DNA from: an uncultured Planctomycetia bacterium
Lineage (GTDB): Bacteria; Omnitrophota; Gorgyraeia; Tantalellales; Tantalellaceae
NCBI GenBank assembly: GCA_964528025.1
Contig: CAZGOZ010000001.1
Location: forward strand, 4,398-68,397
Direction: 5' to 3'
Length of the DNA stretch: 64,000 nucleotides
Positions 40,707 to 52,560 of this stretch are shown piece by piece. Position numbers and translations under genes: made by a program. Positions within the stretch are counted from its first letter, which is position 1, and each line of letters starts with the position of its first letter. Under the pieces are notes generated by a model. That model was not told the DNA's origin and made no database searches. It worked only from the letters and a program-made list of their open reading frames with translations.

Positions 40707-41903
40707 TCAGGCAATCACTTCCGAGACTACTCCCGCTCCTACAGTGCGGCCGCCTTCACGTATCGCAAATCTTAACTCTTTTTCCAACGCTACCGGCGAT
40801 ATGAGTTCCACTTCTATCGTGACGTTATCTCCGGGCATTACCATCTCTACCCCTTCGGGTAGCTTTGCCACTCCCGTTACATCCGTTGTCCGGATATAAA
40901 ACTGCGGCCGGTATCCGTTAAAAAACGGCGTGTGCCGCCCGCCTTCTTCCTTGCTCAATATATATACTTCCGCTTTGAATTTTGTATGCGGTGTGATCGT
41001 TCCCGGCGCCGCAAGCACCTGTCCTCTTTCCAGGTCTGTCTTCTCTATGCCGCGCAAGAGCACTCCCACGTTATCTCCCGCTTGACCTGAATCCAACAGC
41101 TTACGGAACATCTCTATTCCCGTTACCGTCGTCTTCCTCGTCGCGCCGAGACCCACTATCTCAATCTCTTCGCCCACTTTTACCTGGCCCCGTTCTATCC
41201 TTCCGGTGCCCACTGTTCCTCTTCCCGTTATGCTGAACACGTCTTCAACGGGCATCAGAAACGGTTTGTCTATATCTCGCACCGGCTGAGGTATAAACGT
41301 GTCCACCGCGTCCATAAGCTCGCCTATAAACTTGCAATCCTCACTGTCCAACGCGCCTTTCGCTTCCATCGCCTTTAACGCGCTGCCCTTGATTATCGGC
41401 GTATCATCGCCCGGGAAATCATATTTGCTTAAGAGTTCCCTTACCTCAAGTTCTACGAGGTCCAGAAGCTCTTTGTCGTCTACCATGTCCACCTTGTTCA
41501 TGAACACAACCAGCGCCGGCACGTTTACCTGTCTGGCCAGTAATATGTGCTCTCGTGTCTGCGGCATCGGACCGTCAGCCGCCGATACCACCAATATCGC
41601 TCCGTCCATCTGGGCCGCTCCCGTGATCATGTTCTTGATGTAATCCGCGTGCCCGGGACAATCTATATGCGCATAATGTCTTTTATCCGTCTCGTATTCC
41701 ACGTGCGCTACCGCGATTGTTATGCCTCGTTCCTTCTCTTCGGGCGCCTTATCAATCGTATCAAACGCGCGTATTTCCGCCTGCCCCTTGTTCGCCAGGT
41801 ACATCGTGATCGCGGCTGTGAGTGTCGTCTTGCCGTGGTCTACGTGCCCTATCGTTCCAATGTTCAAATGCGGCTTTGTTCTCTCAAATTTTTTCTTGGC
41901 CAT
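40707..41903 (-). CDS. tuf: Elongation factor Tu (copy 2, identical to copy 1)
   Basis: The 398 aa protein matches 25078-26274 exactly; overlapping antisense ORFs are also identical, indicating nucleotide identity. Confidence 0.95.
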
Positions 41904-41984: not shown

Positions 41985-42060
41985 GCTGGAGCCCACGGCC
42001 GGAATTGAACCGGCGACCCCATCCTTACCATGGATGTGCTCTACCAGCTGAGCTACATGG
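41985..42060 (-). tRNA. tRNA-Thr (anticodon GGT)
   Basis: The reverse complement GCCCATGTAGCTCAGCTGGTAGAGCACATCCATGGTAAGGATGGGGTCGCCGGTTCAATTCCGGCCGTGGGCTCCA folds as a cloverleaf. Confidence 0.8.
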
Positions 42061-42194
42061 GCCGTCTTGCCGAATAAAAAAATTTTCACCCGGCCCTCTT
42101 TCGAAAATGACAATAAACTACCCCATTAGCTTGGCTCGTGCAAGCGATTTACATAGGAATTTACTATAGTAAAACCAATACTATGAGATGTCGG

Positions 42195-42232
42195 AATATT
42201 GATTCTACCAAAAAAGTTTTTTATGTCAAGCG
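42195..42232 (-). promoter_or_regulatory. Candidate sigma70-type promoter for the tRNA-Thr / tuf / rpmG transcript
   Basis: On the minus strand: TTGACA (42229-42224), 16 nt spacer, TAGAAT (42207-42202). Confidence 0.45.
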
Positions 42233-42267
42233 TTATTTGTTATTTCTTATATATATGGGGGAAACGT

Positions 42268-42332
42268 AAAAAACCGGCTCTTAATTGGAGCCGGTTTTTT
42301 AATTCAACTGGAGCGAGCGATGGGAATCGGCG
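42268..42332 (-). pseudogene. 3' fragment of tRNA-Gly (about 22 nt, no cloverleaf) with its own downstream terminator hairpin
   Basis: tggagcgagcgatgggaatcg is identical to the 3' end of tRNA-Gly at 42549-42570, but the upstream sequence cannot form T, anticodon or D arms. It is followed by aaaaaccggctcttaattggagccggtttttt. Confidence 0.5.
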
Positions 42333-42509
42333 CCTCCGGGCTCGTATTATTCTACCGGCTCTCGCTATCGCTCATGCCGGAAAATATTCTCGCCCTCCGG
42401 TCGGCCACCCGCATCTTCGGTTGTGCTCGTTTCCTCCTATCCTCGGAAACTTCGCTTTATTAAAGGCTCAGATGCTCCCTTCGATTCCCTCTGTATACCC
42501 GATAGATAA

Positions 42510-42548
42510 AAAAGCCGGCCATGAAATCATGGCCGGCTTTTTAATCTA
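42510..42548 (-). terminator. Intrinsic terminator after tRNA-Gly
   Basis: On the minus strand: GCCGGCCATGATTTCATGGCCGGC followed by TTTTTTATC. Confidence 0.6.
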
Positions 42549-42622
42549 TGGAGCGAGCGATGGGAATCGAACCCACGTAGGAAGCTTGGAAGGCTTCTGC
42601 ACTACCATTGTGCTACGCTCGC
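42549..42622 (-). tRNA. tRNA-Gly (anticodon TCC)
   Basis: The reverse complement GCGAGCGTAGCACAATGGTAGTGCAGAAGCCTTCCAAGCTTCCTACGTGGGTTCGATTCCCATCGCTCGCTCCA folds as a cloverleaf. Confidence 0.8.
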
Positions 42623-42641
42623 TCCGTATGAGTTTTCCGGG

Positions 42642-42959
42642 CTATCTGTTCGCCGGCTGGAAGACCACTACTGTCTTATCTGTATCTTTTCTGGAACTCG
42701 CCAGTACGATTGGCTCCTTTGATATTATGGATATCTCAATATCGTCGTTCATTCTATCCGTCGTCCGAAAAGTTGACTTGAGCATGCCATCCGCAAGAGC
42801 TACATGAGATGTTTTCTTAAAAGCCGTTTTGCCGAAAGTTTCCGCGATTTCGTTACGCACTTTGAGACACACCGACGCAACACCGACGCGGTATTTCCAT
42901 GCCGCATAAATACCTCCAACAAGAGCGATTATAACAAGCAGGATGATTATTTTTTTCAT
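42642..42959 (-). CDS. Hypothetical small membrane-anchored protein
   Basis: MKKIIILLVIIALVGGIYAAWKY forms an N-terminal TM helix; no recognisable domain. The ORF extends upstream to 43073. Confidence 0.4.
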   Translation of the reverse strand: MKKIIILLVIIALVGGIYAAWKYRVGVASVCLKVRNEIAETFGKTAFKKTSHVALADGMLKSTFRTTDRMNDDIEISIISKEPIVLASSRKDTDKTVVVFQPANR

Positions 42960-42960
42960 A

Positions 42961-43344
42961 TTATTGCTTCTCCTCTTTTTCGGATTCTTTTCTCTGAATG
43001 GCGTCCAGATAGCTGTCAACTTCTTCCAAGCTTTTGAAAACAGCATCTTTCGGCAAAAGTTTAACAATCTCAAAAACCTTATTAATCTGCGGTTTGAGGT
43101 TAGTCATTATAAAAACACCGCCCGCGACCTCAACAATTTTCCTCGCCTGAAATATTACTCCGATACCCGCGCTACTTATATAATCCAGCTTATTCATGTC
43201 AAATATCAGGGCTTTTACGGGTTTGTCCAAGAGCGGCATTACACCCTCTTTGAACATGGGATACGTGGTGGAATCCAAACGGCCTTCCGGTCTGATTAGA
43301 TAAACACCGTCTTTCTGTTTTTTTATGTCAACACTGAAACTCAT
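42961..43344 (-). CDS. STAS-domain protein (anti-sigma-factor antagonist-like)
   Basis: 127 aa; ...LDYISSAGIGVIFQARK... is a SpoIIAA-like fold signature. Confidence 0.65.
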   Translation of the reverse strand: MSFSVDIKKQKDGVYLIRPEGRLDSTTYPMFKEGVMPLLDKPVKALIFDMNKLDYISSAGIGVIFQARKIVEVAGGVFIMTNLKPQINKVFEIVKLLPKDAVFKSLEEVDSYLDAIQRKESEKEEKQ

Positions 43345-43769
43345 TTTTCTTCCCCGGGCGAGCCCGGAACGTCTTTCTTTTCGCCGGACAACACTTTTTT
43401 TATCTGTTCAAGCAGCGCTTCGCCGCGGTATGGTTTTGCCACGTACTGTTCCGCGCCGAGCTCCATCCCGTATTCTTCGTCAAACTGGCCCCCTCGTCCG
43501 CTCAGCATGAGCACGGGGATATCTTTCATCTCCTCATCTTTCTTAAGGTTTATGAGTACGTCCCGGCCGTCCATGTCGGGCATTGCGATATCCAGTATCA
43601 CAAGATCGGGTTTTTCCTGTTTAACGACCTCTAACCCTTTCTTGCCGCCGAACGCGGATATCACCTCAAAACCCCTTTGCTCCAGAAACTCCTTTATGGT
43701 ATTAACCAGTTCTTTTTCATCGTCTATTATAACTATTCTGATTTTTGCGGCACCCTCATCCATAAACAC
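43341..43769 (-). CDS. Stand-alone response-regulator receiver (CheY-like)
   Basis: IVIIDDE ... LVILDIAMPDMDG ... a receiver domain with the phospho-acceptor Asp. Confidence 0.8.
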   Translation of the reverse strand: MFMDEGAAKIRIVIIDDEKELVNTIKEFLEQRGFEVISAFGGKKGLEVVKQEKPDLVILDIAMPDMDGRDVLINLKKDEEMKDIPVLMLSGRGGQFDEEYGMELGAEQYVAKPYRGEALLEQIKKVLSGEKKDVPGSPGEEK

Positions 43770-43781
43770 TCCCCTTTTTAT

Positions 43782-44213
43782 TTAGGCTGTCCTATCAGGG
43801 CGTTTTGCCTGGTTAACCAAAAAAGTTTTCTGCCCGAAAATCTTATCGTTGGAGTAAATCCTGAATTCATATTTCCCCGGATGCGCAAACTTGAGAGCCC
43901 CGAGGTTAAAAACAAGATCATGGATCTCAAGAGGGCTGCAAATCCTAATTTCCTTGGGTATCTCCGCCCTGCCGATAACGGAATCATTCTCCAAATCAAC
44001 CAGTTCCAGGCAGAAACGATATTTTCCGTTCAGATCCGTGAGTTTTATATACACGGCAAGAAAATGATGCACGCACGGAAACTTGAAAGCCGAGATGTTC
44101 TCAAAAATTCCGATAAGACTTTTTTTGTTCGTGCCGGCTTCCGTTATAACTTTATCGCATACAAGCATCGCATTCACTACCGGTTTGGTAACACTCGCCA
44201 TTCGTTCCTCCAT
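43782..44213 (-). CDS. Hypothetical protein, no recognised domain
   Basis: 143 aa intact ORF in an operon-like arrangement with the PilZ, REC and STAS genes. Confidence 0.4.
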   Translation of the reverse strand: MEERMASVTKPVVNAMLVCDKVITEAGTNKKSLIGIFENISAFKFPCVHHFLAVYIKLTDLNGKYRFCLELVDLENDSVIGRAEIPKEIRICSPLEIHDLVFNLGALKFAHPGKYEFRIYSNDKIFGQKTFLVNQAKRPDRTA

Positions 44214-44238
44214 ATATTTTTATATAACGAAAACCGTG

Positions 44239-44646
44239 TTAAAGCGTCGGATGTTCATCCTGCTCAAGATCCGGCGACGCCCATTTGGAATAACATTCAT
44301 CAACAACTCTGATTATTCGTTCTCTGTCTTTCTTCGTAATCTCCGAAAAAATCAACGCTACGAGAAATAGATACGGCGCCCGCAGGTCCTCAACCCGTAT
44401 CACCTCTCCCACACAACTTATGGGATCTTCTTCCGGTGAAAAGTTTACTTTGAGGTCAAGCAGCGACCCGACCTCCACTTTTTTGTTGTAATAGAAAAGC
44501 GCCCCGCCGGCCCCTATATCCAAAACGGCCACCATATCCCACCCCTCAAACGCCTTCTTGCGCCCCTTATGTTCCTTGATCTGAAACCCTATAATGAAAG
44601 GTTTTTTTACCCTCTTATATTTTCGCCGCTCTTTTCCCTTAAACAT
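44239..44646 (-). CDS. PilZ-domain protein (c-di-GMP binding)
   Basis: RRKYKR (RxxxR) motif and DIGAGGA (DxSxGG) motif. The ORF extends to 44868 across a hairpin repeat; start chosen at MFKGKERRKYKR. Confidence 0.7.
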   Translation of the reverse strand: MFKGKERRKYKRVKKPFIIGFQIKEHKGRKKAFEGWDMVAVLDIGAGGALFYYNKKVEVGSLLDLKVNFSPEEDPISCVGEVIRVEDLRAPYLFLVALIFSEITKKDRERIIRVVDECYSKWASPDLEQDEHPTL

Positions 44647-44850
44647 ATCAGCATATCCCCTTTCATAAAACGAAAAACCGCATATATACAGGATAAATAC
44701 TATTATACCCGTCCGCGCCGGATATGCAAGCGTCTCCTTGCCCGCTCGTCCCGTAGCAGAACAAGAATCACCCGCCTCTCCGTCTGTCATTCCCGCGGAA
44801 ACGGGAATCCATTCGATATGAGAAATATGCAAAAAACGGCTGTTTTTCGT

Positions 44851-44905
44851 GCTCAGGGGTGTCCCCAAAAGGCATGTCCCCCGGATGGATGTCCCCCCGG
44901 ATGGA
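44851..44905 (+). repeat. rTGTCCCC direct-repeat cluster 1 (shares a 33-mer with clusters 2 and 3)
   Basis: cgtgctcaggggtgtccccaaaaggcatgtcccccggatggatgtccccccgg. Confidence 0.8.
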
Positions 44906-44918
44906 AATAGAATTCGTA

Positions 44919-44955
44919 GGGGCGAATAATTATTCGCCCGTACGTCTTTTATTTT
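44919..44955 (+). terminator. Hairpin plus conserved CTACGTCTTTTATTTT tail (family D, plus-strand orientation)
   Basis: gtaggggcgaataattattcgcccgtacgtcttttatttt. Confidence 0.45.
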
Positions 44956-45061
44956 GAATTTCCCGGGAACGGAACGCTCTGGCCAGATGAAAGAAAAAGA
45001 AAGTAAATACTTGTATTTTCTTTCTTTTCGTGATATCCTTTAGTCAAAAGGGGGCAATAAA

Positions 45062-45301
45062 ATGACTGTACAATTATCGACCAGAATAGATTCTAAGGCA
45101 AAACAGGCGTTAGATCAGCTGCACAAGAAAACCCATGTGCCTATATGCGTTCTGACCGAAAAGGCGATCTTTTTGCTCAAGGAGAAATACGAGCGCATAA
45201 GTTCGGTGGGAAAAAAGGGCGCGGTTGATGAAGTATTTATGGGCTTACTGGACCACAGCATGAAGAAACACGATGCCACATACAAAAAACTCGCCGATTG
45301 A
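45062..45301 (+). CDS. Antitoxin (Phd/RHH-like), partner of Doc
   Basis: A 79 aa ORF overlapping the Doc gene start. The N-terminal beta-strand/helix pattern MTVQLSTRIDSKAKQALDQL looks like an RHH fold. Confidence 0.6.
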   Translation: MTVQLSTRIDSKAKQALDQLHKKTHVPICVLTEKAIFLLKEKYERISSVGKKGAVDEVFMGLLDHSMKKHDATYKKLAD

Positions 45302-45704
45302 GCCGGTTAAATATCTCAGATTAGAACAAGTGCTTGCCGTTCACACTACCCTTATCGAGCGCTACGGAGGAAGGCACGGCATCCGCGATAAAGGACTTGT
45401 TGAATCCGCTGTCTTTAGACCACAAACTACGGTTTTTGGCCGGGAAGCTTACCCCGATTTTTTCGGGAAATGCGCTGTCCTGGGATATTCCCTTATCCAA
45501 AACCATCCTTTCATCGACGGCAACAAGCGAACAGGTTTTGCTGCCATGCATCTTATGCTACTTATGAACGGCTATGATCTGACTTCCTCCACCACAGAGG
45601 AAGTCAAAATGGCAGAAAAAACAGCTTCCGGAAAAATGAAGGAATCTGAAATAGCCCTCTGGCTCAAAAAACACTCCAAGAAGAAAAGACCAAAGACAAA
45701 ATAA
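45273..45704 (+). CDS. doc: Doc/Fic-family toxin
   Basis: Fic motif HPFIDGNKRTGFAAM. The N-terminus KYLRLEQVLAVHTTLIERYGG resembles P1 Doc. The ATG at 45273 overlaps the antitoxin by 29 nt, so the true start is uncertain. Confidence 0.75.
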   Translation: MPHTKNSPIEPVKYLRLEQVLAVHTTLIERYGGRHGIRDKGLVESAVFRPQTTVFGREAYPDFFGKCAVLGYSLIQNHPFIDGNKRTGFAAMHLMLLMNGYDLTSSTTEEVKMAEKTASGKMKESEIALWLKKHSKKKRPKTK

Positions 45705-45706
45705 TG

Positions 45707-45740
45707 ATTACACTCCGGGTTTGTACACTCCCGGAGTGTA
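45707..45740 (+). terminator. Hairpin after doc
   Basis: ttacactccgggtttgtacactcccggagtgtaa followed by tttctgg. Confidence 0.45.
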
Positions 45741-45769
45741 ATTTCTGGGCCTGCTCAAAAGTGTAAAGG

Positions 45770-45895
45770 ATGTCCCCGGGTTAAAGTGTAAAGCATGTTC
45801 CAGTTGCACAGTTCTAGATGTCCCCTGTTCTAGAAGGGGGCATGTCCCCAGTTCTAGAATATACAGGGGTGTCCCCAAAAGGCATGTCCCCGGTT
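45770..45895 (+). repeat. rTGTCCCC direct-repeat cluster 2 (five motif copies)
   Basis: ggatgtccccgggtt ... agatgtcccctgttctaga ... gcatgtccccagttctaga ... caggggtgtccccaaaaggcatgtccccggtt. Confidence 0.8.
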
Positions 45896-45913
45896 ATTAC
45901 ATTAGGCGGTGAG

Positions 45914-48900
45914 TTAGGCTGCGGACCTGATATTCTTTTTTATGATTCCATTCAGTATTGGGATTATATTAACATCCATTTTTCTGACGGGCAGGCGGAA
46001 CAGGAGCTCTTTGGCCAGCTGGTTAATATCCGTTGCTTTAGTCGTCCAGTCTTCTCCCGTGAGAGTCCGATAAGCGCTGAGAAGCTTATTCATATCACCG
46101 GTTTCGAGAGCCCGAAGAGCCATCATGATACCTTCAACTTGGATTATATCGCCTTCTCCATCTTTAGTGAAGGCGAGAGCTTTCATGCCTTTGGCCTGTA
46201 CCTTTTCAACAAGTTCTTTTCCAGGACAGGCAACATCAAATTGGACCTTGTAATTTTGATACTGAGATTCTATCTGCGTTTTCAATGTTTCTAATTTTTC
46301 CATAAACTCTTCCGGCTTGACTGAATCCGCCATTGAGAGTGATACTATTTTCTCGCCATATTTTTCGTCTCTCATCTCCTGCTCAAGTGTTTTAAGTATA
46401 TCCCTTTGCTGAACAGGTAGTATTGAATCTGTAACTATGTGGCAGATAATCGTCTTGTCCGGAATACTCGGGGTAAGGCTGAGGTTTTCGGTGTGTATTT
46501 TATCGGCTTTTTCTACCTCACGCGCATCGCTGGAGCATAGCAACTCTACAAGCGCCTTCGTATCTCTAAAATCGGGCCGTGTAAAGTCGGCTAAAGCCCC
46601 GAACTTCGCCGGTTCGCCTATACCCAAACCTAAAGCGCGTCTCATTGAGGTTTCTGTTTTCGCGTATTTTAAATCCTCCGGGGAGTCACCGATCATGACA
46701 ACTTGATTGCTTTTCAAGCCGTATCTCTTTTTGACGGCTTTAATAACTTCAGATTTTTTGACAGGAGACCCTATAACCCTGGAAGAAAGCGATTCGCCCT
46801 CTTTGAGCACTTTATCGCGAAGTATTTCACCTATCTCGGTCTCGCGAACCGCCACATCCAAAACGTCTTGGGTTATGCCGCTGGCGATATATATCTCAAT
46901 CCCGTTTCTTACAAGCTCTTTTATGAATTCAACTGCACCCGGTATGTACACCTTCGGCCTGCTCTGGATGTATATAATCTGCAACCCGTTGTAGGCAATA
47001 ACGAATCTCTTGGCTATATCGGGTTCGGCTTGAATGCTGTCTATCTTTTCCTGACTTAACTTGAATTTGTTCGCCAGTTTTACGGCTAACTCCGAAAGGT
47101 CTTCGTCACTATGCCCGTTCTGTTTCGCTATACCAATCAACATATGCATCTGCTCTATACAAGGCCTGCCGGTGGTCTCACCTACAAATTTGTAGCCCTC
47201 TTTCAAATCTTCTTCCTGAGACGCATCGTCAACAGTGCAATGTGTAATATACCACCAGTTTTTAGCCCACAGCTCTTTCTTCCAGCTCAATGTCTCAAGC
47301 ATAGTCCCATCCCAGTCAATAACAGCTGCTTTTACATCCGGTTTAATACGCGCGTTAGCGGTGGGATTTTTTGCCGGTGTCTGGGTATTCATCTTAGGGT
47401 GGACGGATAAATCCACCTGTTCTGCAAGCCCTATTTCTCTAATCGATTTTTCAGCTAAATTTTTTGCTCTTTGATTTGGGCGGAAAATTAAATCAAATCC
47501 TGTTTGCTCCGGTAAAGTTTCAGGAGCTACCCCTGTTAATAGCAACTGTTCAATTTGAGGATAAATTTCTCCAATTCTATTCAACAAATCTAGCGGACTT
47601 GATAAACCTAATTGGGCATAAGAAACTACACCCGCAAAGGGATAAGCTTCTTCGTCTGGCAATACTACTTCAGCTACAATTCTTTCCCTGGCCATGATTT
47701 TTATAGCTCTTAATGGTAATTTTGATGCCTCTAACTTTTTATAATGTAGTTCGTTTTCTTGCTTAAGGTCCTCAATTTGATCCTTTAGTGTCTCCGCGCT
47801 CATTTCTTTTCTCTTTGGGGGCTCAGGAGTGTGCAAAATGGTTTCTAGGTCAGTTATTAAAAATTCATTAAGCGCTATTTGTCTAGTTAGCGTAAATTCT
47901 ACTTCAACGTATTTAGCCGTTTCTTTTCGTACAAATTCAAGAAACTCTTCTGAAGTTGGGTCTACAATTCTAACACTTATCCTGCCTACAATAGGCTTAG
48001 TACTCATACCAATGCCATTCACATAGTCTCTAATTTCTAAATCAACTCCAGGCACAAAGTAAGCAAGTCTTCTGTGTTTGTCTAACACTTCATACACCTT
48101 AAGTTCTTGCTCCCTTGTCAAGTCTCCGTACAAATGGAAATTATTAGGCTCTTCCTTTATAAGCAATTCTTCTTGTACTATGCCGCTTTCATCAATGTAA
48201 AAGTTATCAATCAACTCTTCCCATAGCACACTCACATCAGATACTATTTCACTAAAATCCTCTTTTTTGACTGGAAGACTATCTCCTTTTGTACGAATTT
48301 TAAGTGAGAGCAAAGCCTCTTGAGAATCATTTACTTGACGTACCAGTCTGAAATTATAGCTACCTGTAACCCTCATCGGGGATTCTAACATCCAACCGCT
48401 TGTGTGATGATGAAAGTCGTAATAAATAAAACTGGTTGAGAATGGAGACTCTCTTTTTTCTGATTCACTTTTAAAACGCCTGGCTAGATTCACATAACGA
48501 TGCGTGACTTCCTGTAGTGTTGCCCCAAGTACATCAACATCGGAGATAGCTGCTATACCTAAAAGCTCTTTCTCTAAATCTCTGCTTCTTTGCTCAACAT
48601 CTTCATCAGGTTGACTATCAAAACTCAAATCCATATAAGCATCTGAGCTAACTTCTCCCCTAAAGGGTTTATGTTGAATAGAATACACATCCTCTAACCA
48701 ACTGGTATCCAGAGCAAGTATCGTAGCTTGTTTCTCGTCTTGCACGTCGGCTTCGGTTTCTGGCTTTGTTTGTTGTAAATGCTTTCTTAAGAGTGTTTCA
48801 TATTGTCCGGAAACTACATCATAGAATTGGTTTATCCACTTTTCGCTTTTTTCATCCAATTCATGATTCTTCTCTTTTCCCGTTGTTTCAATAAATTCTA

Positions 48901-50059
48901 TTGCTTCTAAATAATTAATTTTTTTTCTGTCGTCACTAATCAAGTTTAGATATATGCTTGCGACAATTAATCGCATTAGAACTGTTCTGTAACGTTTCCT
49001 ATCTGTTTCCTCACGAAAATAAGTTTTATTTAATCTTTGGGCAGCATTGTTAATAAGCGAAAATGTTATTGGCAAGACATTTCCGAGCGGTAATTGCGGC
49101 TCAACGAAGTCTTCACCCCAAAGAACGAAATTTCGGAATAATAATTGCGCTCTTGTACTATTAATAACACTGGCAACATCCCCGATATTTTTTCTTTCAG
49201 GGCCATTATAGAAATCTCCCCTTACAAGATTGTCTTCGCCTATAACGGTAATATCTATACCGCTTATGCCATTTCTTCCTTCACCACAATCTTTTGGGAA
49301 TATTTTCGAAAAGTTTTCAATTTCTATATGCTCCATGGACTCACATGCATTGCCTTTAACGATAATATCCAGATCAATATCATTGGGATTATCGCTCCAG
49401 AGAAAGCTTCCAAAAACTGAAATGTTTTTTATTTCGTACTGCGGATAGTGTTCTTTAAAATAATCTATAATAGATGCTGTTCTGTTCGCCAAAACGTGAC
49501 AGGAAGACAATATCTCTTCTTGTTTTTTTTGCGGATTACCTGCATAAAAGAGATTACGTTGTAGTCTTTTTCGCAACAAATCTCTGTGCTCAGCTTCAAC
49601 TTGCTCACCTGAAAAAACTTTTGCGGGAAATTCAAACTTAAAATCTATTGGCGTGGGGAATTCAACTTGCTGCTTGTTCCCGTGTAAATCATCTAAATGC
49701 TCTTTTATTACCCTTTTCACTCCACTCTGGCTCAAGCCCATCTTCTTAACTCTATCTCTCAATAGGTTGAAATATATTATTTCAGCCTCACTTTGAAAGT
49801 TGTCCCGAAAAATACTTCTGGCATCTTCATTTAGCTCGGTGATAACGACATTACCGTTTGTTGTCTTTATGTCAACTACTGGATTGAAGAGAGATTGTAT
49901 TGCCAAAGCTGAAGTAATTGGACCCTGAAGGGAGTAACCCTGCCCGGTCATAGAAAAGGCAAGAATCACTATTATTGATATTACCCGCAATAGATAATTA
50001 TGATTATGGACGTACTTACACATGTGGGTTAGCATAACAAAAGCGTTGTTAATAAGCAA
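45914..50059 (-). CDS. Giant 1381 aa protein with an N-terminal TM/signal anchor, a minimal nucleotidyltransferase (Pol-beta superfamily) motif and a HAD-superfamily hydrolase domain
   Basis: N-terminus LLRVISIIVILAFSMTGQG. The NTase signature is VFGSFLWSDNPNDIDLDIIV (GS-x11-DxD). HAD motifs: I VIDWDGTML, II IASGIT, K KKSEVIKAVKK, IV MIGDSPED. The region and its codon usage are AT-rich. Confidence 0.7.
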   Translation of the reverse strand: MLINNAFVMLTHMCKYVHNHNYLLRVISIIVILAFSMTGQGYSLQGPITSALAIQSLFNPVVDIKTTNGNVVITELNEDARSIFRDNFQSEAEIIYFNLLRDRVKKMGLSQSGVKRVIKEHLDDLHGNKQQVEFPTPIDFKFEFPAKVFSGEQVEAEHRDLLRKRLQRNLFYAGNPQKKQEEILSSCHVLANRTASIIDYFKEHYPQYEIKNISVFGSFLWSDNPNDIDLDIIVKGNACESMEHIEIENFSKIFPKDCGEGRNGISGIDITVIGEDNLVRGDFYNGPERKNIGDVASVINSTRAQLLFRNFVLWGEDFVEPQLPLGNVLPITFSLINNAAQRLNKTYFREETDRKRYRTVLMRLIVASIYLNLISDDRKKINYLEAIEFIETTGKEKNHELDEKSEKWINQFYDVVSGQYETLLRKHLQQTKPETEADVQDEKQATILALDTSWLEDVYSIQHKPFRGEVSSDAYMDLSFDSQPDEDVEQRSRDLEKELLGIAAISDVDVLGATLQEVTHRYVNLARRFKSESEKRESPFSTSFIYYDFHHHTSGWMLESPMRVTGSYNFRLVRQVNDSQEALLSLKIRTKGDSLPVKKEDFSEIVSDVSVLWEELIDNFYIDESGIVQEELLIKEEPNNFHLYGDLTREQELKVYEVLDKHRRLAYFVPGVDLEIRDYVNGIGMSTKPIVGRISVRIVDPTSEEFLEFVRKETAKYVEVEFTLTRQIALNEFLITDLETILHTPEPPKRKEMSAETLKDQIEDLKQENELHYKKLEASKLPLRAIKIMARERIVAEVVLPDEEAYPFAGVVSYAQLGLSSPLDLLNRIGEIYPQIEQLLLTGVAPETLPEQTGFDLIFRPNQRAKNLAEKSIREIGLAEQVDLSVHPKMNTQTPAKNPTANARIKPDVKAAVIDWDGTMLETLSWKKELWAKNWWYITHCTVDDASQEEDLKEGYKFVGETTGRPCIEQMHMLIGIAKQNGHSDEDLSELAVKLANKFKLSQEKIDSIQAEPDIAKRFVIAYNGLQIIYIQSRPKVYIPGAVEFIKELVRNGIEIYIASGITQDVLDVAVRETEIGEILRDKVLKEGESLSSRVIGSPVKKSEVIKAVKKRYGLKSNQVVMIGDSPEDLKYAKTETSMRRALGLGIGEPAKFGALADFTRPDFRDTKALVELLCSSDAREVEKADKIHTENLSLTPSIPDKTIICHIVTDSILPVQQRDILKTLEQEMRDEKYGEKIVSLSMADSVKPEEFMEKLETLKTQIESQYQNYKVQFDVACPGKELVEKVQAKGMKALAFTKDGEGDIIQVEGIMMALRALETGDMNKLLSAYRTLTGEDWTTKATDINQLAKELLFRLPVRKMDVNIIPILNGIIKKNIRSAA

Positions 50060-50104
50060 CTTTTGAGGTTATAACACGGGTCCTCCGATGAGGGTTCGGA
50101 AAAA

Positions 50105-50215
50105 CGGGGTATTCCCGTGCTCAGGGGTGTCCCCAAAAGGCATGTCCCCGGTTATGGGTTTTCCAGGGGTGTCCCCAAAAGACATGTCCCCGGTTCTGGA
50201 TGTCCCCGTCCCGGA
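50105..50215 (+). repeat. rTGTCCCC direct-repeat cluster 3 (five to six copies) directly upstream of the giant gene start
   Basis: cccgtgctcaggggtgtccccaaaaggcatgtccccggttatgggttttccaggggtgtccccaaaagacatgtccccggttctggatgtccccgtcc. Confidence 0.8.
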
Positions 50216-50528
50216 CCGGACGGTCCCGGGCCGGAAATGGGGTTCCCGCCCTACCGCCGCGCGGGATCGCTTGGGGCTGTTGTTAAGAGGTAAATGTTTG
50301 TTTTGGATGTGGGGTGTTAGTATGGGGTTACTTCGATTTTCGGGGGCTGACCCCGTTTGTGTGATTTGCTTCTCTTGTATCATATGGTATAATTTAAGTA
50401 GAATACTGTGAGGGCTTATTTAGTTTGACATATGTTTTTTTCGTGGTATACTTACCGCACTTTCTTGAAAAGGCTTGGGTAATAATTTGAGATGTCAATC
50501 CCAGAATTGACTATCGCTATCAAAATTA

Positions 50529-51377
50529 TCAACCTGAGCCTTTCTCTTTTTTAGGCACCTCTTTGGATTGTTTTACATACCTGATATTAAACTTATTCCT
50601 TATTTTGACCGAAACTTTTTTAGAAGCTTCTACCCAAGTATTCACAGTTAAATCTCTTATGCCTATTTTTTTAACTAAATACTCTCTAACCAAATTTTTA
50701 TTCATAGACCCTTTGTTTTTACTTCCTTTTATTGGAAATAGATTGTTTAAAATACATCCTTGCAATAAATCGCAAACACCCATAAGCTCATATCCCTCGG
50801 CTCCAGAAACCACATCTTGTATGTGTCTTATGCGAGGTCTTGTTAAACCTTTAGAATATACATTATCTGGTATACAAAAATTTTGTTTCAAGGTATTCAT
50901 GAATTGTTTTGGATCACATCTAGACATTTTATCCAAAAAAAGTACTGCATCGTCGACTTCTCTCATTTCTTTGTTTAATAAATGCTCAGCAAGAGTACGA
51001 TAAACTCTCTGTCTTTTTATTTTATCTGGCTCTGTTGCGTCACCATATCTATGCAATTCAAGCGAATTATCCGTTCGGATTGCTACAGCAGCAAAGTAGC
51101 TATCGCTATCGATAAATTTATCAATTACTTTTTCATATACTTCTCTTGTTTTTTTTGTATAACACCAATTATATTTAATCTCTCGAAGTCGACCATTTGG
51201 TAAAATAAAATGCTCTTTCATTAGTAATTTTTTAATTTCATTAAAAAACTTTTTATGGTGGGGATTGAATAATCCTCCTAAAATAAGCCATGTATGGTTA
51301 TGGTCATATGTTTCATCTAAATATATTTTCACAATACTGCTCCCAACTTTCGCTTTATCTTTTGTGGTTTCCAGCAA
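50529..51377 (-). CDS. Hypothetical protein, possibly DUF3800-like
   Basis: 282 aa. The N-terminal KIYLDETYDHNH resembles the YxDE[ST] start of DUF3800 proteins, recalled from memory only. AT-rich. Confidence 0.3.
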   Translation of the reverse strand: MLETTKDKAKVGSSIVKIYLDETYDHNHTWLILGGLFNPHHKKFFNEIKKLLMKEHFILPNGRLREIKYNWCYTKKTREVYEKVIDKFIDSDSYFAAVAIRTDNSLELHRYGDATEPDKIKRQRVYRTLAEHLLNKEMREVDDAVLFLDKMSRCDPKQFMNTLKQNFCIPDNVYSKGLTRPRIRHIQDVVSGAEGYELMGVCDLLQGCILNNLFPIKGSKNKGSMNKNLVREYLVKKIGIRDLTVNTWVEASKKVSVKIRNKFNIRYVKQSKEVPKKEKGSG

Positions 51378-51436
51378 AACGTGTTAGACGCTTTGCCGAA
51401 ATCACGGGTCTCCCTCAGAACCTCAGCAACGCAATC

Positions 51437-51763
51437 TTAAGCCACAAGGTTTGTCTTAAGCTTTTTTCTTTTAAGCTTCCCCGTTTCCATGTGTTCATCG
51501 ATACACTCATCACATTTTGATAATCGATCAAATGCTTCTGCAATATTTTCCGCTCTGTGAGATTTTATTAATCGTACATAATCGTCATGAAACGACTCCC
51601 CCATTTTTCTCAAAAGCTCCCTGTATACATCAAGGATTCTCCCTGTCATTTGAGATAAAGAGCGATCATCACTTTCTGCTAATCGTTCCAGAAACTTTTT
51701 GCTTTCTTTCGTCAGCCTAATCTGTATTCTTTCATCTTTTTTCATAAGCTTCATTGTACGCAT
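51437..51763 (-). CDS. Ribbon-helix-helix (CopG/ParD-like) DNA-binding protein
   Basis: IQIRLTKESKKFLERLAESDDRSLSQMTGRILDVY shows a beta-strand then two helices; 108 aa. Sits upstream of the DUF3800-like gene. Confidence 0.5.
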   Translation of the reverse strand: MRTMKLMKKDERIQIRLTKESKKFLERLAESDDRSLSQMTGRILDVYRELLRKMGESFHDDYVRLIKSHRAENIAEAFDRLSKCDECIDEHMETGKLKRKKLKTNLVA

Positions 51764-51802
51764 TTGTCACCATTTGTCAACCCCCTTCCAACCCGCCTCG
51801 AA

Positions 51803-51959
51803 GAATCCCCCGGTGCCTGCCCTTGCGGGGCTTAAATTTCCCGAACGGGCAGGGTTCCCGAAGGCCGAAAGGCCTGAGGGGGAGCGAGGGAAATTTCAGA
51901 GGTCAATTTCCTCGCTGGGGAAATTGACCGTCCCCGCGGGGGCAGGTGCCGGGGGATTC
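51803..51959. other. Long inverted repeat (about 30 bp arms) enclosing nested sub-hairpins; a candidate structured RNA or regulatory element
   Basis: gaatcccccggtgcctgcccttgcggggc ... gtccccgcgggggcaggtgccgggggattc, with inner hairpins aggccgaaaggcct and gagcgagggaaatt..aatttcctcgctg. Confidence 0.4.
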
Positions 51960-51961
51960 TC

Positions 51962-52150
51962 GTGAGGGGACAACACAAAGGGCGGGGGAACCCCGCCCCT
52001 ACGTCTTTTATTTTTGTTTTTACGTTCCCGATTCAATCGTGGGCGGACAACACAAAGGGCGGGTTTGGAACCCGCCCCTACGTCTTTTATTTTTACATTT
52101 AATCGTGGCCGGACAACAAAAAGGGCGGGCACGAGGCCCGCCCTTAGGGA
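51962..52150 (+). repeat. Three tandem family D units (about 65-75 bp each), each a GGGCGGG-loop-CCCGCCC hairpin plus a CTACGTCTTTTATTTTT tail
   Basis: ggacaacacaaagggcgggggaaccccgcccctacgtcttttattttt / ggacaacacaaagggcgggtttggaacccgcccctacgtcttttattttt / ggacaacaaaaagggcgggcacgaggcccgccc. Confidence 0.7.
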
Positions 52151-52223
52151 TTTTACTTTATTGGTCCCTCGGCGCGTTCGCTTCGCTCACTTGCTCGGGA
52201 TCAATTTTTGCGGAGCAAAAATT

Positions 52224-52307
52224 GGTGGGGAGAGAAGGATTCGAACCTTCGAAGGCAGAGCCGACAGATTTACAGTCTGTTGCGTTTAACCACTTCGCTA
52301 TCTCCCC
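52224..52307 (-). tRNA. tRNA-Tyr (anticodon GTA), long variable arm
   Basis: The reverse complement GGGGAGATAGCGAAGTGGTTAAACGCAACAGACTGTAAATCTGTCGGCTCTGCCTTCGAAGGTTCGAATCCTTCTCTCCCCACCA folds as a type II tRNA. Confidence 0.8.
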
Positions 52308-52377
52308 ACGAGAGAGGGATTCCGGAATGTATTGTAGAAAACCGGAATGCGTTTGTAAAGAACTATTAGTATTAGCA

Positions 52378-52478
52378 ATGGATTCCCGCTTTCGCGGGAA
52401 TGACATCTTAACAATGGATTCCCGCTTTCGCGGGGATGACATCTTAACAATGGATCCCCGCTTCCGCGGGGATGACAT
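52378..52478. repeat. Three tandem copies of a 36 bp unit containing a family E GC hairpin
   Basis: acaatggattcccgctttcgcggggatgacatctta x3, with no unique spacers. Confidence 0.8.
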
Positions 52479-52485
52479 TTGAAAC

Positions 52486-52560
52486 TGGAGCCGGCGGAGG
52501 GATTCGAACCCCCGACCAGAGGTTTACAAAACCCCTGCTCTACCCCTGAGCTACGCCGGC
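52486..52560 (-). tRNA. tRNA-Thr (anticodon TGT)
   Basis: The reverse complement has acceptor GCCGGCG, anticodon loop TTTGTAA, T-loop TTCGAAT and encoded CCA. The anticodon call depends on the stem register. Confidence 0.65.

What the first reader, a model, noticed from the sequence alone, without database searches (positions are those of the whole stretch)
45914..50059. 1381 aa signal/TM-anchored protein combining a Pol-beta-type nucleotidyltransferase motif with a HAD phosphatase domain
Read from the sequence: one N-terminal TM/signal segment. A GS-x11-DxD motif (VFGSFLWSDNPNDIDLDIIV) is typical of minimal nucleotidyltransferases. About 700 aa further on is a complete HAD motif set (DxDGT, S/T, K, GDxxxD). 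Pairing nucleotide transfer with phosphate removal in one exported or anchored protein suggests it makes or edits a nucleotide-derived signal, or modifies a surface or host substrate. Roughly 600 aa between and after these domains have no motif I recognise.
Basis: partly seen in the sequence, partly recalled or inferred. Interest (0 to 1): 0.8.

Follow-up and report, generated by a model that had tools for sequence, protein, structure and literature searches.

The report
Mosaic secreted multi-enzyme protein, Omnitrophota
The 1381-codon reading frame is a real, intact gene of a Candidatus Omnitrophota bacterium that strings together a signal peptide, a nucleotide-transferring enzyme domain, a phosphatase domain and three uncharacterised domains, but the domains look like shuffled parts joined recently, not a conserved two-enzyme machine.

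Summary
Observation confirmed. ORF 45914-50059 (-) is intact and identical in three other assemblies. It has one N-terminal hydrophobic segment, a Pol-beta-type GS/DxD motif and a complete HAD motif set.

The protein is a mosaic of separately shuffled modules:
- a Sec-type signal peptide plus a ~90-aa N-domain, shared with a set of Omnitrophota-affiliated modular proteins;
- a ~300-aa two-lobed nucleotidyltransferase (about 48 homologues, invariant G217, D227, D229; AF2 pLDDT 87; nearest folds are ANT/AadA-type adenylyltransferases and DrrA);
- a ~300-aa domain with no fold match, carrying a nested 70-aa insert;
- a C1-capped HAD phosphatase;
- a ~200-aa C-terminal domain with two homologues, one from an Omnitrophica MAG.

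The functional interpretation is only partly supported. No other NTase+HAD fusion was found. A GC3 change point at codon ~880 (0.31 vs 0.49) suggests the two halves were joined recently. The NTase family does, however, sit in conserved clusters with nucleotide-metabolism genes.

The gene lies in a 9.6-kb insert that splits the conserved tRNA-Thr/Tyr/Gly/Thr-tuf array. It is best filed as a mid-sized relative of the described Omnitrophota multi-enzyme long proteins. Substrates and site of action are unknown.

The parts
45914..50059 (-). Whole ORF, 1381 codons from TTG plus stop. Likely start is ATG at 50023 (M13), giving 1369 aa.
   Evidence: identical in other assemblies; start choice from the N-terminal alignment
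49925..50023 (-). Signal-peptide-like segment, residues 13-45: basic n-region, ~15-residue hydrophobic core, small-residue c-region
   Evidence: Kyte-Doolittle maximum of 1.75; aligned with SP-like N-termini of 13 homologues
49670..49924 (-). Conserved ~90-aa N-domain, residues 46-130 (motifs TSxLAxQSxF and DAEIxYFNLL). Shared at the N-terminus of proteins with varied enzymatic cargo.
   Evidence: found in two Ca. Omnitrophota MAGs; no PDB match
48725..49669 (-). Nucleotidyltransferase module, residues 131-445: N-terminal strand/helices, Pol-beta core, C-terminal helical lobe
49373..49411 (-). Catalytic signature G217-S218 ... D227-I-D229. The probable third carboxylate, E275/D276, lies in IGEDNL at residues 273-278 (window 49226-49243).
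   Evidence: G217, D227, D229 and G274 are invariant in A3; positions
48689..48874 (-). Residues 396-457: weak similarity to the start of the family's 209-aa C-terminal domain (WGQTFxD ... LDTSW). Tentative.
   Evidence: hmmsearch 5.7 bits, E = 5e-4 against a single sequence
47501..48613 (-). Module of unknown function, residues 483-853 (motifs ESPFxxSxIYxDxHHxxSGWxLE and GLxSPLDLL). Mixed beta-sheet plus a long helical hairpin in the model.
   Evidence: homologues P0003, P0006, P0007, P0012; P0003's cluster includes an Omnitrophica MAG protein; AF2 pLDDT 69.6; no fold or sequence match in PDB
48089..48292 (-). Nested ~70-aa insert, residues 590-657. It also occurs in an ankyrin-repeat protein and twice in another protein.
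   Evidence: P0070 and P0065
47410..47430 (-). GC3 change point near codon 880. Upstream GC3 is 0.31 and downstream 0.485.
   Evidence: log-likelihood ratio 21.2; 0 of 500 permutations
46658..47335 (-). HAD phosphatase domain, residues 909-1134, with a ~125-aa C1-type cap. Motif I D915/D917, motif II S1060, motif III K1101/K1102, motif IV D1125/D1129.
   Evidence: PF00702, 52 bits; NCBIfam HAD subfamilies all below cut-off; alignments to 2hi0 and 1f5s; positions
45917..46567 (-). C-terminal domain ('CTD2'), residues ~1165-1381, ending ...NIRSAA
   Evidence: 64% and 57% identical to the C-termini of P0089 (Omnitrophica MAG) and P0090, which have different upstream parts; no Pfam or PDB match
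50124..50191 (+). Two copies of a 26-nt dispersed repeat (GGGGTGTCCCCAAAAGRCATGTCCCC) upstream of the gene
45866..45891 (+). Third copy of the same repeat, 23 nt downstream of the stop codon. It contains a weak terminator-like hairpin on the minus strand.
50529..51763 (-). Upstream low-GC gene pair, probably co-transcribed with the target: Arc-like RHH (51437-51763) and DUF3800 (50529-51377)
   Evidence: Pfam and PHROGs; GC3 0.34 and 0.24; sigma-70-like promoter 51780-51753 on the minus strand and none between DUF3800 and the target
42623..52222 (.). 9.6-kb insert between tRNA-Tyr (52223-52307) and tRNA-Gly (42549-42622). It holds the target, a phd/doc pair, PilZ, DUF6941, a response regulator and STAS.

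Best explanation
**What it is.** The gene encodes a modular multi-enzyme protein of a Candidatus Omnitrophota bacterium. It is a mid-sized relative of the signal-peptide- or TM-bearing multi-enzyme 'long proteins' described for that phylum.

**How it was built (shown).** The protein was assembled by domain shuffling. A Sec-type signal peptide and a family-specific ~90-aa N-domain are followed by a two-lobed ANT/KNTase-like nucleotidyltransferase, then an uncharacterised ~300-aa domain with a nested small insert, then a C1-capped HAD phosphatase, then a ~200-aa C-terminal domain. The boundary before the HAD domain is a recent recombination joint. This last point is inferred from the GC3 change point.

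**How it most likely works (inferred).**
- The precursor is exported through Sec and the signal peptide is removed.
- The catalytic modules act independently, not as a coupled pair.
- The NTase uses its G217-S218 / D227 / D229 / E275 site to bind Mg-NTP and transfer an NMP, most likely AMP, to a hydroxyl group of a protein or small-molecule acceptor, as ANT enzymes and DrrA do.
- The HAD domain hydrolyses a small phosphomonoester through an aspartyl-phosphate on D915.
- Such chemistry needs NTPs. The shared leader also carries radical-SAM, GHKL-ATPase and NAD-epimerase cargo in sister proteins. The likeliest site of action is therefore the cytoplasm or surface of a host or prey cell of this probably host-dependent bacterium. 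This step is speculation.
For: **Origin.** NusG, L1, S7, EF-G and L10 of the window cluster at 90% identity or more with proteins of an Omnitrophota MAG. The leader domain was found only in Omnitrophota MAGs in the genome scan.

**Integrity.** The ORF is identical in three other assemblies.

**Modularity.** An exhaustive HMMER search gave 72 hits, and each covers only one module.
- The leader is shared by 14 representatives. Ten of them also carry a conserved 209-aa C-terminal domain. Pfam finds GDPD, epimerase, HAD, His_Phos, HATPase and radical-SAM cargo among those scanned.
- The NTase module occurs in 48 representatives, both stand-alone and inside proteins of 2-7.5 kaa.
- The C/D module and CTD2 recur with other partners.

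**HAD.** Pfam scores above threshold and all four motifs are aligned.

**Recent fusion.** There is a GC3 change point at codon ~880. The upstream low-GC RHH and DUF3800 genes share a promoter-like site with the 5' part.

**Literature.** Omnitrophota long proteins carry HAD, methyltransferase, HATPase and radical-SAM modules, and 94% have a signal peptide or TM segments. The phylum is read as host-dependent (bioRxiv 10.64898/2026.06.07.730766; bioRxiv 10.1101/2023.11.21.568195).
Against: - No activity, substrate or localisation has been measured.
- The signal-peptide call is heuristic. The start codon is ambiguous, and one gene call (M37) removes the hydrophobic segment altogether.
- The third catalytic carboxylate is conserved in only about 70% of the family, by my reading of the alignment.
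- Structural similarity to ANT enzymes is weak: Foldseek E = 5e-4 and TM 0.31-0.37.
- 35 of 48 NTase-family representatives have no N-terminal hydrophobic segment. The domain is therefore basically a cytoplasmic enzyme, and its function after export is unexplained.
- No secretion-system genes or other conserved neighbours accompany family members.
- A GC3 shift could in principle have causes other than recombination.
Confidence: 0.55

Rival explanations
1. The NTase and HAD domains form a coupled pair on one exported protein. Together they make or edit a nucleotide-derived molecule, for example by nucleotidylating a substrate and then removing a phosphate, or by trimming a nucleotide signal.
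For: Stand-alone homologues of the NTase lie in a conserved cluster with dCMP-deaminase, PHP phosphoesterase, GT1, thymidylate-synthase-like/pterin-binding, APH-like kinase and methyltransferase genes. In one locus the cluster also holds HIT, a P-loop kinase, NUDIX and four histidine phosphatases. P0013 fuses APH-like, NTase and deaminase parts collinear with the operon. A link between this NTase family, nucleotide metabolism and phosphoesterases is therefore real.
Against: No other NTase-HAD fusion was found among the 71 other representatives. About 460 residues of unrelated modules separate the two domains. A GC3 change point lies just before the HAD domain. The HAD and C-terminal parts have host-like composition, while the NTase part resembles the foreign upstream genes. 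In the clusters the phosphoesterases are PHP and His_Phos, not HAD.
Confidence: 0.2
2. The N-terminal segment is an uncleaved membrane anchor and the enzyme domains stay on the cytoplasmic face. The protein would then be a membrane-tethered cytoplasmic multi-enzyme, like the 'TM-only' class of Omnitrophota long proteins.
For: NTases need NTPs. Sister proteins with the same leader carry radical-SAM, GHKL-ATPase and NAD-epimerase domains that normally work only in the cytoplasm. Most NTase-family members are cytoplasmic. The 2026 preprint reads 46% of long proteins as inner-membrane-anchored with cytoplasmic domains.
Against: The hydrophobic core is only ~15 residues. Positive charges lie on its N-terminal side, and the first 40 residues after it are net acidic. 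Homologues have AxA/AxS-type cleavage motifs followed by a conserved TSTLAP motif. All of this predicts N-in/C-out export or cleavage, not a C-in topology.
Confidence: 0.17
3. The gene is a non-functional or decaying chimera: an accidental in-frame fusion created by recombination in a hypervariable island.
For: The full-length architecture is unique. The ORF is compositionally chimeric and has no Shine-Dalgarno motif. It lies in an insert with a toxin-antitoxin pair and dispersed repeats. There is a possible remnant of another C-terminal domain in mid-protein.
Against: A 4.1-kb frame is open in ~40% GC DNA. All catalytic residues of both enzymes are retained. The sequence is identical in several assemblies.
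Confidence: 0.08

Closest known systems
Omnitrophota long or giant multi-enzyme proteins (West-Roberts et al. 2023, bioRxiv 10.1101/2023.11.21.568195; 2026 preprint 10.64898/2026.06.07.730766)
   Same: Same phylum. Both have an N-terminal signal peptide or TM segment followed by a string of cytoplasm-type enzyme domains, including HAD. The target's NTase module is 38-39% identical to modules inside proteins of 5166 and 5746 aa.
   Different: The target has only 1381 aa, against 10,000 aa or more in those catalogues. It has a single hydrophobic segment and no SecA_DEAD, C39 or dockerin-type domains. The shared N-domain, CTD1 and CTD2 modules found here are not mentioned in the passages I read of the two preprints.
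Two-domain aminoglycoside nucleotidyltransferases: ANT(4')/KNTase, AAD(9), ANT(3'')(9)/AadA
   Different: Sequence identity is 10-15% and TM only 0.31-0.37. None of the 32 family members scanned matched an aminoglycoside-NTase Pfam family at E <= 0.1. The target module has an extra ~70-residue N-terminal extension with a conserved FxFxFPxxIF strand. Its genomic partners are nucleotide-metabolism genes, not resistance genes.
Legionella DrrA/SidM AMPylation domain
   Different: There is no sequence relationship. DrrA is a type IV secretion substrate without a Sec signal peptide (my own knowledge). The match is no better than to the ANT enzymes.
MNT-HEPN minimal nucleotidyltransferase toxin-antitoxin modules (MntA/HepT; PADLOC PDC-S09)
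   Different: Here there is one polypeptide, not two proteins. No Rx4-6H motif follows the conserved R363. The module is three times longer than an MNT.
C1-capped HAD phosphatases (phosphoserine phosphatase, phosphoglycolate phosphatase)
   Same: All four HAD motifs are present and the cap is inserted between motifs I and II. The best alignments are to 2hi0 and 1f5s.
   Different: Scores are far below every equivalog cut-off (serB 28 bits against 144). The cap is unusually long at ~125 aa. The domain is embedded in a 1381-aa secreted protein.

Membership tests
Pol-beta-type nucleotidyltransferase fold superfamily | hG[GS] motif followed by [DE]h[DE]h on the next strand | tested here: met
   G217-S218 and D227-I-D229. 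G217, D227 and D229 are invariant in 32 aligned homologues and align with GS/DxD of solved MNTs.
Pol-beta-type nucleotidyltransferase fold superfamily | Third catalytic carboxylate on a downstream strand | tested here: inconclusive
   E275/D276 lie in IGEDNL after invariant G274. The acidic residue is present in most but not all family members. The model's coordinates could not be inspected.
Pol-beta-type nucleotidyltransferase fold superfamily | Significant match to curated family models (Pfam PF01909 / PF18765) | tested here: not met
   15-20 bits against cut-offs of 21 and 26.9. Only 12 of 32 family members match, and at best E = 8e-4.
Pol-beta-type nucleotidyltransferase fold superfamily | Alpha-beta-alpha-beta-alpha-beta core fold | tested here: met
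ANT/KNTase-type aminoglycoside nucleotidyltransferases | NTase core plus C-terminal helical substrate-binding lobe | tested here: met
   Helices 203-306 of the model follow the core. Two-domain alignments to AAD(9) and ANT(3'')(9).
ANT/KNTase-type aminoglycoside nucleotidyltransferases | Sequence membership in, or adenylylation of aminoglycosides by, that family | tested here: not met
   No family-level sequence match. PDB profile E-values to ANT enzymes are 1.0-1.3. Activity is not testable here.
MNT-HEPN toxin-antitoxin | Small MNT antitoxin paired with a separate HEPN toxin bearing Rx4-6H | tested here: not met
   The module is a single ~300-aa unit. No His lies 4-6 residues after the conserved Arg of the helical lobe. 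PADLOC PDC-S09 matches are weak, 14-19 bits.
HAD superfamily phosphatase | Motif I DxDx[TV], motif II S/T, motif III K, motif IV [GS]DxxxD, plus a curated model above threshold | tested here: met
   D915-W-D917-G-T919, S1060, K1101/K1102 and G1124-D1125-x3-D1129. PF00702 scores 52 bits against 26.4, PF12710 34.1 against 27 and PF13419 25.1 against 23.8.
Phosphoserine phosphatase SerB and other named HAD equivalogs | Score above the NCBIfam equivalog cut-off | tested here: not met
   TIGR00338 scores 28.2 against 144. All 15 NCBIfam matches are far below their cut-offs.
Omnitrophota giant proteins (Archaeovorin or Dockerin type) | Length of 10,000 aa or more, many TM helices, SecA_DEAD / C39 / dockerin-type domains | tested here: not met
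   1381 aa, one hydrophobic segment and none of those Pfam domains. Only shared modules link the target to 2-7.5 kaa proteins.
Leader-plus-CTD1 family of Omnitrophota-affiliated modular proteins (defined here) | Signal peptide plus N-domain with TSxLAxQSxF ... DAEIxYFNLL | tested here: met
   49% identity to P0011 over 123 residues. 14 sequences aligned.
Leader-plus-CTD1 family of Omnitrophota-affiliated modular proteins (defined here) | 209-aa C-terminal domain ending ...GQLKAMKSA | tested here: not met
   The CTD1 HMM does not match the target's C-terminus. hhalign of CTD2 against CTD1 gives E = 0.064 and probability below 1%. The target instead ends in CTD2.
Polymorphic toxin / effector systems | Conserved N-terminal trafficking region, variable C-terminal toxin, adjacent immunity gene | tested here: inconclusive
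   A conserved leader with variable cargo is seen, and deaminase partners of the NTase are MafB19-like. The C-termini are conserved, not variable. No immunity-like neighbour or secretion apparatus recurs.
Integron gene cassette | attC sites with RYYYAAC / GTTRRRY cores and a nearby intI integrase | tested here: not met
   The flanking 26-nt repeats lack these cores. No integrase ORF was seen in the insert. The repeat is dispersed across many contigs.

The most novel reading that the evidence does not exclude
The shared signal peptide with its ~90-aa N-domain, together with the conserved C-terminal domains CTD1 and CTD2, mark an undescribed Omnitrophota export or delivery route. This route would carry cytoplasm-type enzymes (NTase, HAD, radical SAM, GHKL ATPases, epimerases, phosphodiesterases) out of the cell and into or onto host or prey cells. 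The target would be one recently re-assorted effector of that repertoire.
Probability: 0.15. Interest if true: 0.8.

Novelty: new member of a known kind. Interest (0 to 1): 0.45.

Why it matters
Omnitrophota are abundant, tiny and mostly uncultured bacteria thought to depend on or prey upon other cells. Their enormous multi-enzyme proteins are an open puzzle. This 1.4-kaa protein is a tractable, complete example built from the same parts.

It exposes four things:
- a leader domain shared by many proteins with cytoplasm-type enzymatic cargo;
- a widespread nucleotidyltransferase family that has no curated model, and that is genomically tied to a conserved nucleotide-modification-like gene cluster;
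- two further domains with no known fold;
- direct compositional evidence that such proteins are re-assorted by recombination inside a variable insert next to the ribosomal/EF-Tu region.

If the leader really is an export tag, it gives a handle for listing the effector repertoire of the phylum. If not, the gene is simply one more lineage-specific hypothetical protein.

Tried and rejected
**Searches for full-length relatives**
- The word-index homology search with the whole protein returned only the protein itself. A close-relative scan of GTDB genomes found nothing.
- The same index searched with the 32-sequence NTase profile returned one protein. It missed sequences that are in the query alignment, so I treated that tool as unreliable for this family.

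**Library scans**
- PADLOC gave only weak MNT-like (PDC-S09) matches, and PHROGs nothing informative for the target.
- PADLOC on the neighbours of a stand-alone NTase gave no defence system.

**C-terminal domain**
- Similarity of the target's C-terminus to the family CTD1 looked plausible by eye. It was not significant by hmmsearch or hhalign. Similarity to the C-terminus of P0004 was also not significant.
- The CTD2 profile hit to the Rad50 head (5dac, E = 0.01) was judged too weak and too short to use.

**C/D module**
- AF2 with 8 sequences gave pLDDT 69.6. Foldseek returned only coiled-coil noise, best E = 0.7. A PDB profile search found nothing.

**Flanking repeats**
- An integron-cassette reading was rejected: no attC cores, no integrase, and the repeat is dispersed.

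**Comparison with relatives**
- I could not test whether a close relative lacks the insert. Its contig starts inside tuf.

**Alternative chemistry**
- A LicD/fukutin-type phospho-alcohol transferase chemistry was considered for the NTase because of kinase, PEMT and GDPD partners. It is not supported: there is no LicD Pfam match and no FKRP or LicD structural hit.

**Literature**
- Searches for DUF4346 and for Omnitrophota with nucleotidyltransferase found nothing relevant.

Full report
**1. The observation**

ORF 45914..50059 (minus strand) is present as described: 1381 codons from TTG. The same DNA occurs with no mismatches in a Logan contig from SRR6481098 covering window 45868-50140. It also occurs over 10.9 kb in an ENA MEGAHIT contig and a JGI contig. 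The assemblies may share reads.

The start codon is ambiguous. Gene callers chose M13 (1369 aa) or M37 (1345 aa). No candidate start has a Shine-Dalgarno motif, although many genes in the window do. Thirteen homologous N-termini align through the hydrophobic stretch, which supports M13 or earlier.

There is a single hydrophobic segment, with a Kyte-Doolittle maximum of 1.75 at residues 23-41. Its core is short (~15 residues), its n-region is basic, and homologues have AxA/AxS-type c-regions. This looks like a cleavable Sec signal peptide. That is a heuristic judgement; no predictor was available.

**2. The two recognised enzyme domains**

HAD domain:
- PF00702 scores 52 bits against a cut-off of 26.4 over residues 909-1134.
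- Pairwise alignments to phosphoglycolate phosphatase 2hi0 and M. jannaschii phosphoserine phosphatase are individually weak (E = 0.025-0.16). They place D915/D917, S1060, K1101/K1102 and D1125/D1129 opposite what I recognise as the HAD motif positions.
- No named HAD equivalog is reached.

NTase domain:
- Curated NTase models score below threshold.
- An exhaustive HMMER search of 1.84 billion cluster representatives with residues 40-905 found 48 proteins matching residues ~130-430.
- In a 32-sequence alignment, G217, D227, D229, G274 and G315 are invariant. The catalytic pair is D227-I-D229, so the spacing is GS-x8-DxD, not x11.
- The family profile hits a solved minimal NTase at E = 5e-6 with these motifs aligned.
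- AF2 on this alignment gave pLDDT 86.8 and pTM 0.84.
- The best Foldseek matches are ANT(4'), AAD(9) and AadA (E from 5e-4, TM 0.31-0.37).

The module is thus an uncurated, KNTase-like two-lobed member of the Pol-beta NTase superfamily.

**3. The rest of the protein is also modular**

Local phmmer mapping and follow-up work divide the protein as follows.
- *Residues 13-130, leader.* A signal peptide plus a ~90-aa N-domain. Fourteen representatives share it. Ten of these also carry a conserved 209-aa C-terminal domain, CTD1, ending ...GQLKAMKSA. Pfam finds cargo of GDPD, NAD-epimerase, HAD, histidine phosphatase, GHKL ATPase, PPDK_N and radical SAM among those scanned.
- *Residues 131-445, NTase.*
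- *Residues 396-457.* A weak match to the start of CTD1. Tentative.
- *Residues 483-853, 'C/D' module.* Shared with P0003, P0006, P0007 and P0012, and interrupted by a ~70-aa insert (590-657) that also occurs in an ankyrin-repeat protein and elsewhere. Its AF2 model is mediocre (pLDDT 69.6), and neither Foldseek nor a PDB profile search finds a relative.
- *Residues 909-1134, HAD.*
- *Residues ~1165-1381, 'CTD2'.* It is 64% and 57% identical to the C-termini of two proteins with different upstream parts, one of them from an Omnitrophica MAG. It has no Pfam or PDB relative and no significant similarity to CTD1.

**4. Organism and locus**

NusG, L1, S7, EF-G and L10 of the window cluster at 90% identity or more with proteins of a Candidatus Omnitrophota MAG. 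The leader domain was found in two Omnitrophota MAGs in the GTDB scan. The cluster of P0003, a C/D homologue, includes an Omnitrophica MAG protein.

The gene lies in a 9.6-kb insert between tRNA-Tyr and tRNA-Gly. The array tRNA-Thr(UGU), Tyr, Gly(UCC), Thr(GGU), tuf is contiguous in E. coli as thrU-tyrU-glyT-thrT-tufB (my own knowledge). The insert also holds an Arc-like RHH gene, a DUF3800 gene, a phd/doc pair, PilZ, DUF6941, a response regulator and STAS.

A 2026 preprint reports that hypervariable regions in Omnitrophota chromosomes often include ribosomal, EF-Tu or EF-G content. This locus fits that pattern.

**5. Evidence that the NTase-HAD pairing is recent**

- No other representative detectably combines this NTase with a HAD domain. 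This rests on Pfam scans of about a dozen of them and weaker phmmer searches over all 71.
- GC3 is 0.27-0.34 across the NTase and C/D modules. The upstream DUF3800 (0.24) and RHH (0.34) genes are similar.
- GC3 is 0.46-0.51 across HAD and CTD2, close to the value of 0.55 for housekeeping genes.
- A single change point at codon ~880 has a log-likelihood ratio of 21.2, reached by 0 of 500 permutations.
- A sigma-70-like promoter precedes the RHH gene, and none lies between DUF3800 and the target. The low-GC block may therefore be one transcription unit.

I read this as an in-frame fusion of a foreign 5' part with a resident 3' part. This is an inference.

**6. What bears on function**

NTase partners in fusions are PCMT, PEMT, SAM methyltransferases, an APH-type kinase and MafB19-like cytidine deaminases.

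Three divergent stand-alone homologues sit in a conserved cluster. It contains dCMP-deaminase, PHP, GT1, a thymidylate-synthase-like/pterin-binding protein, an APH-like protein, two tandem NTase paralogues and a methyltransferase. One locus adds HIT, a P-loop kinase, NUDIX and four histidine phosphatases. P0013 is the fused equivalent.

Thirty-five of 48 representatives lack an N-terminal hydrophobic segment. The domain is therefore natively cytoplasmic. One secreted stand-alone member lies beside two ATP/ADP translocase genes, which suggests a host-dependent organism.

Contexts of leader-family genes show no recurrent secretion apparatus.

**7. Mechanism proposed**

Shown:
- an intact mosaic gene;
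- an NTase fold with conserved metal-binding residues;
- a HAD domain with a full catalytic set;
- a leader shared with diverse cargo;
- a compositional chimera.

Inferred:
- Sec export and cleavage;
- independent action of the modules;
- NMP transfer to a hydroxyl acceptor by the NTase;
- phosphomonoester hydrolysis by the HAD domain.

Speculative: action in or on a host or prey cell. This is suggested by the NTP, SAM and NAD requirements of the family's cargo and by the host-dependent lifestyle proposed for the phylum.

The rivals are a coupled NTase/HAD machine, a membrane-anchored cytoplasmic enzyme and a non-functional chimera. They are scored separately.

**8. Comparison and novelty**

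The protein is best filed as a mid-sized member of the phenomenon of Omnitrophota signal-peptide- or TM-bearing multi-enzyme proteins. Their catalogues list HAD, methyltransferase, HATPase and radical-SAM modules. The target fails the size and domain criteria of the named giant classes.

The NTase belongs to the Pol-beta superfamily and works like ANT or DrrA-type adenylyltransferases. It is not a member of those families by sequence.

The N-domain, CTD1, CTD2 and C/D modules have no curated family. I did not find them in the passages read of the two preprints.

Overall this is a new member of a known kind, with moderate interest. Its value lies in offering a small, complete model for how these proteins are built and possibly exported.

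Noticed in passing
window 44856-44881, 45866-45891, 50124-50149, 50166-50191 (all + strand); loci L005-L035: A 26-nt repeat, GGGGTGTCCCCAAAAGRCATGTCCCC, sits within a ~60-nt conserved unit (AAAAACGG..TTTTCGTGCTCA-repeat-GGTTCT). It brackets the phd/doc pair and the target gene. It occurs in 31 further stretches of two JGI metagenomes, often at contig ends. Wherever two copies share a locus they have the same orientation. Extra ATGTCCCC half-sites cluster beside the copies. Its function is unknown: it could be a REP/MITE-like element, a binding-site array or a recombination hotspot.
   Followed up: partly
window 47419 (codon ~880 of the target); also 50529-51763: There is a sharp GC3 discontinuity inside the ORF, 0.31 upstream against 0.49 downstream. 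The low-GC part continues upstream through the DUF3800 and RHH genes. This suggests a ~4.4-kb foreign block fused in frame to a resident 3' gene part.
   Followed up: yes
window 41987-42622 and 52223-52560: The conserved tRNA-Thr(UGU)/Tyr/Gly(UCC)/Thr(GGU)-tuf array is split by 9.6 kb between tRNA-Tyr and tRNA-Gly. A perfect 21-nt copy of the 3' end of tRNA-Gly (42549-42569) lies 240 bp downstream at 42309-42329. It resembles an old integration scar.
   Followed up: partly
window 52372-52479 and 44785-44813: Three tandem 36-nt repeats (TTAGCAATGGATTCCCGCTTTCGCGGGAATGACATC) lie between tRNA-Thr and tRNA-Tyr. An inverted copy of the 29-nt core sits next to the first copy of the 26-nt repeat.
   Followed up: no
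window 51952-52159: Three ~63-nt direct repeats each contain a GC-rich hairpin followed by a T-run. They look like terminators on the minus strand and lie just downstream of tRNA-Tyr. A related 21-nt piece is at 44935-44955.
   Followed up: no
window 25078-26274 and 40707-41903: Two tuf genes encode identical EF-Tu proteins: ten proteins submitted collapsed to nine. The contig of a closely related MAG starts inside tuf, so the duplication probably fragments assemblies at this locus.
   Followed up: partly
loci L036 (5370-8840), L040 (1-12822), L041 (107-9182): A conserved gene cluster surrounds stand-alone homologues of the NTase. It holds dCMP-deaminase, PHP, GT1, a thymidylate-synthase-like/pterin-binding (DUF4346) protein, an APH-like protein of 408-444 aa, two tandem NTase paralogues and a methyltransferase. 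L040 adds HIT, an SKI/cytidylate-kinase-like protein, NUDIX and four histidine phosphatases. P0013 fuses the APH-like, NTase and deaminase parts. It looks like an undescribed nucleotide or nucleoside modification pathway.
   Followed up: partly
locus L004 (6001-7050 and 10617-13050): A signal-peptide-bearing stand-alone NTase homologue (P0035) lies about 3.5 kb from two TLC-type ATP/ADP translocase genes on a 521-kb NCBI contig. This suggests an energy-parasitic, host-dependent bacterium.
   Followed up: no
window 45062-45704 (+): A phd-like RHH antitoxin (79 aa) overlaps a Doc/Fic toxin (143 aa). The pair is flanked on both sides by the 26-nt repeat and is oriented opposite to almost every other gene in the window.
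   Followed up: partly
window 50529-51763 (-): An Arc-like RHH gene and a DUF3800 gene (GC3 0.24, PHROG 3732) lie directly upstream of the target. A strong sigma-70-like promoter match sits at 51780-51753. This may be the remains of a mobile element.
   Followed up: partly
protein P0007 (705 aa), residues ~200-230: This homologue of the C/D module carries an N-terminal region with an HxHxH-like string (FHMHVIPV) reminiscent of HIT/GalT nucleotide transferases. Pfam did not recognise it.
   Followed up: no
locus L038 (5203-5898): A PAAR-motif protein gene lies about 2.6 kb from the leader-family gene P0011. It was seen only once, so no link to a contractile injection system can be claimed.
   Followed up: no
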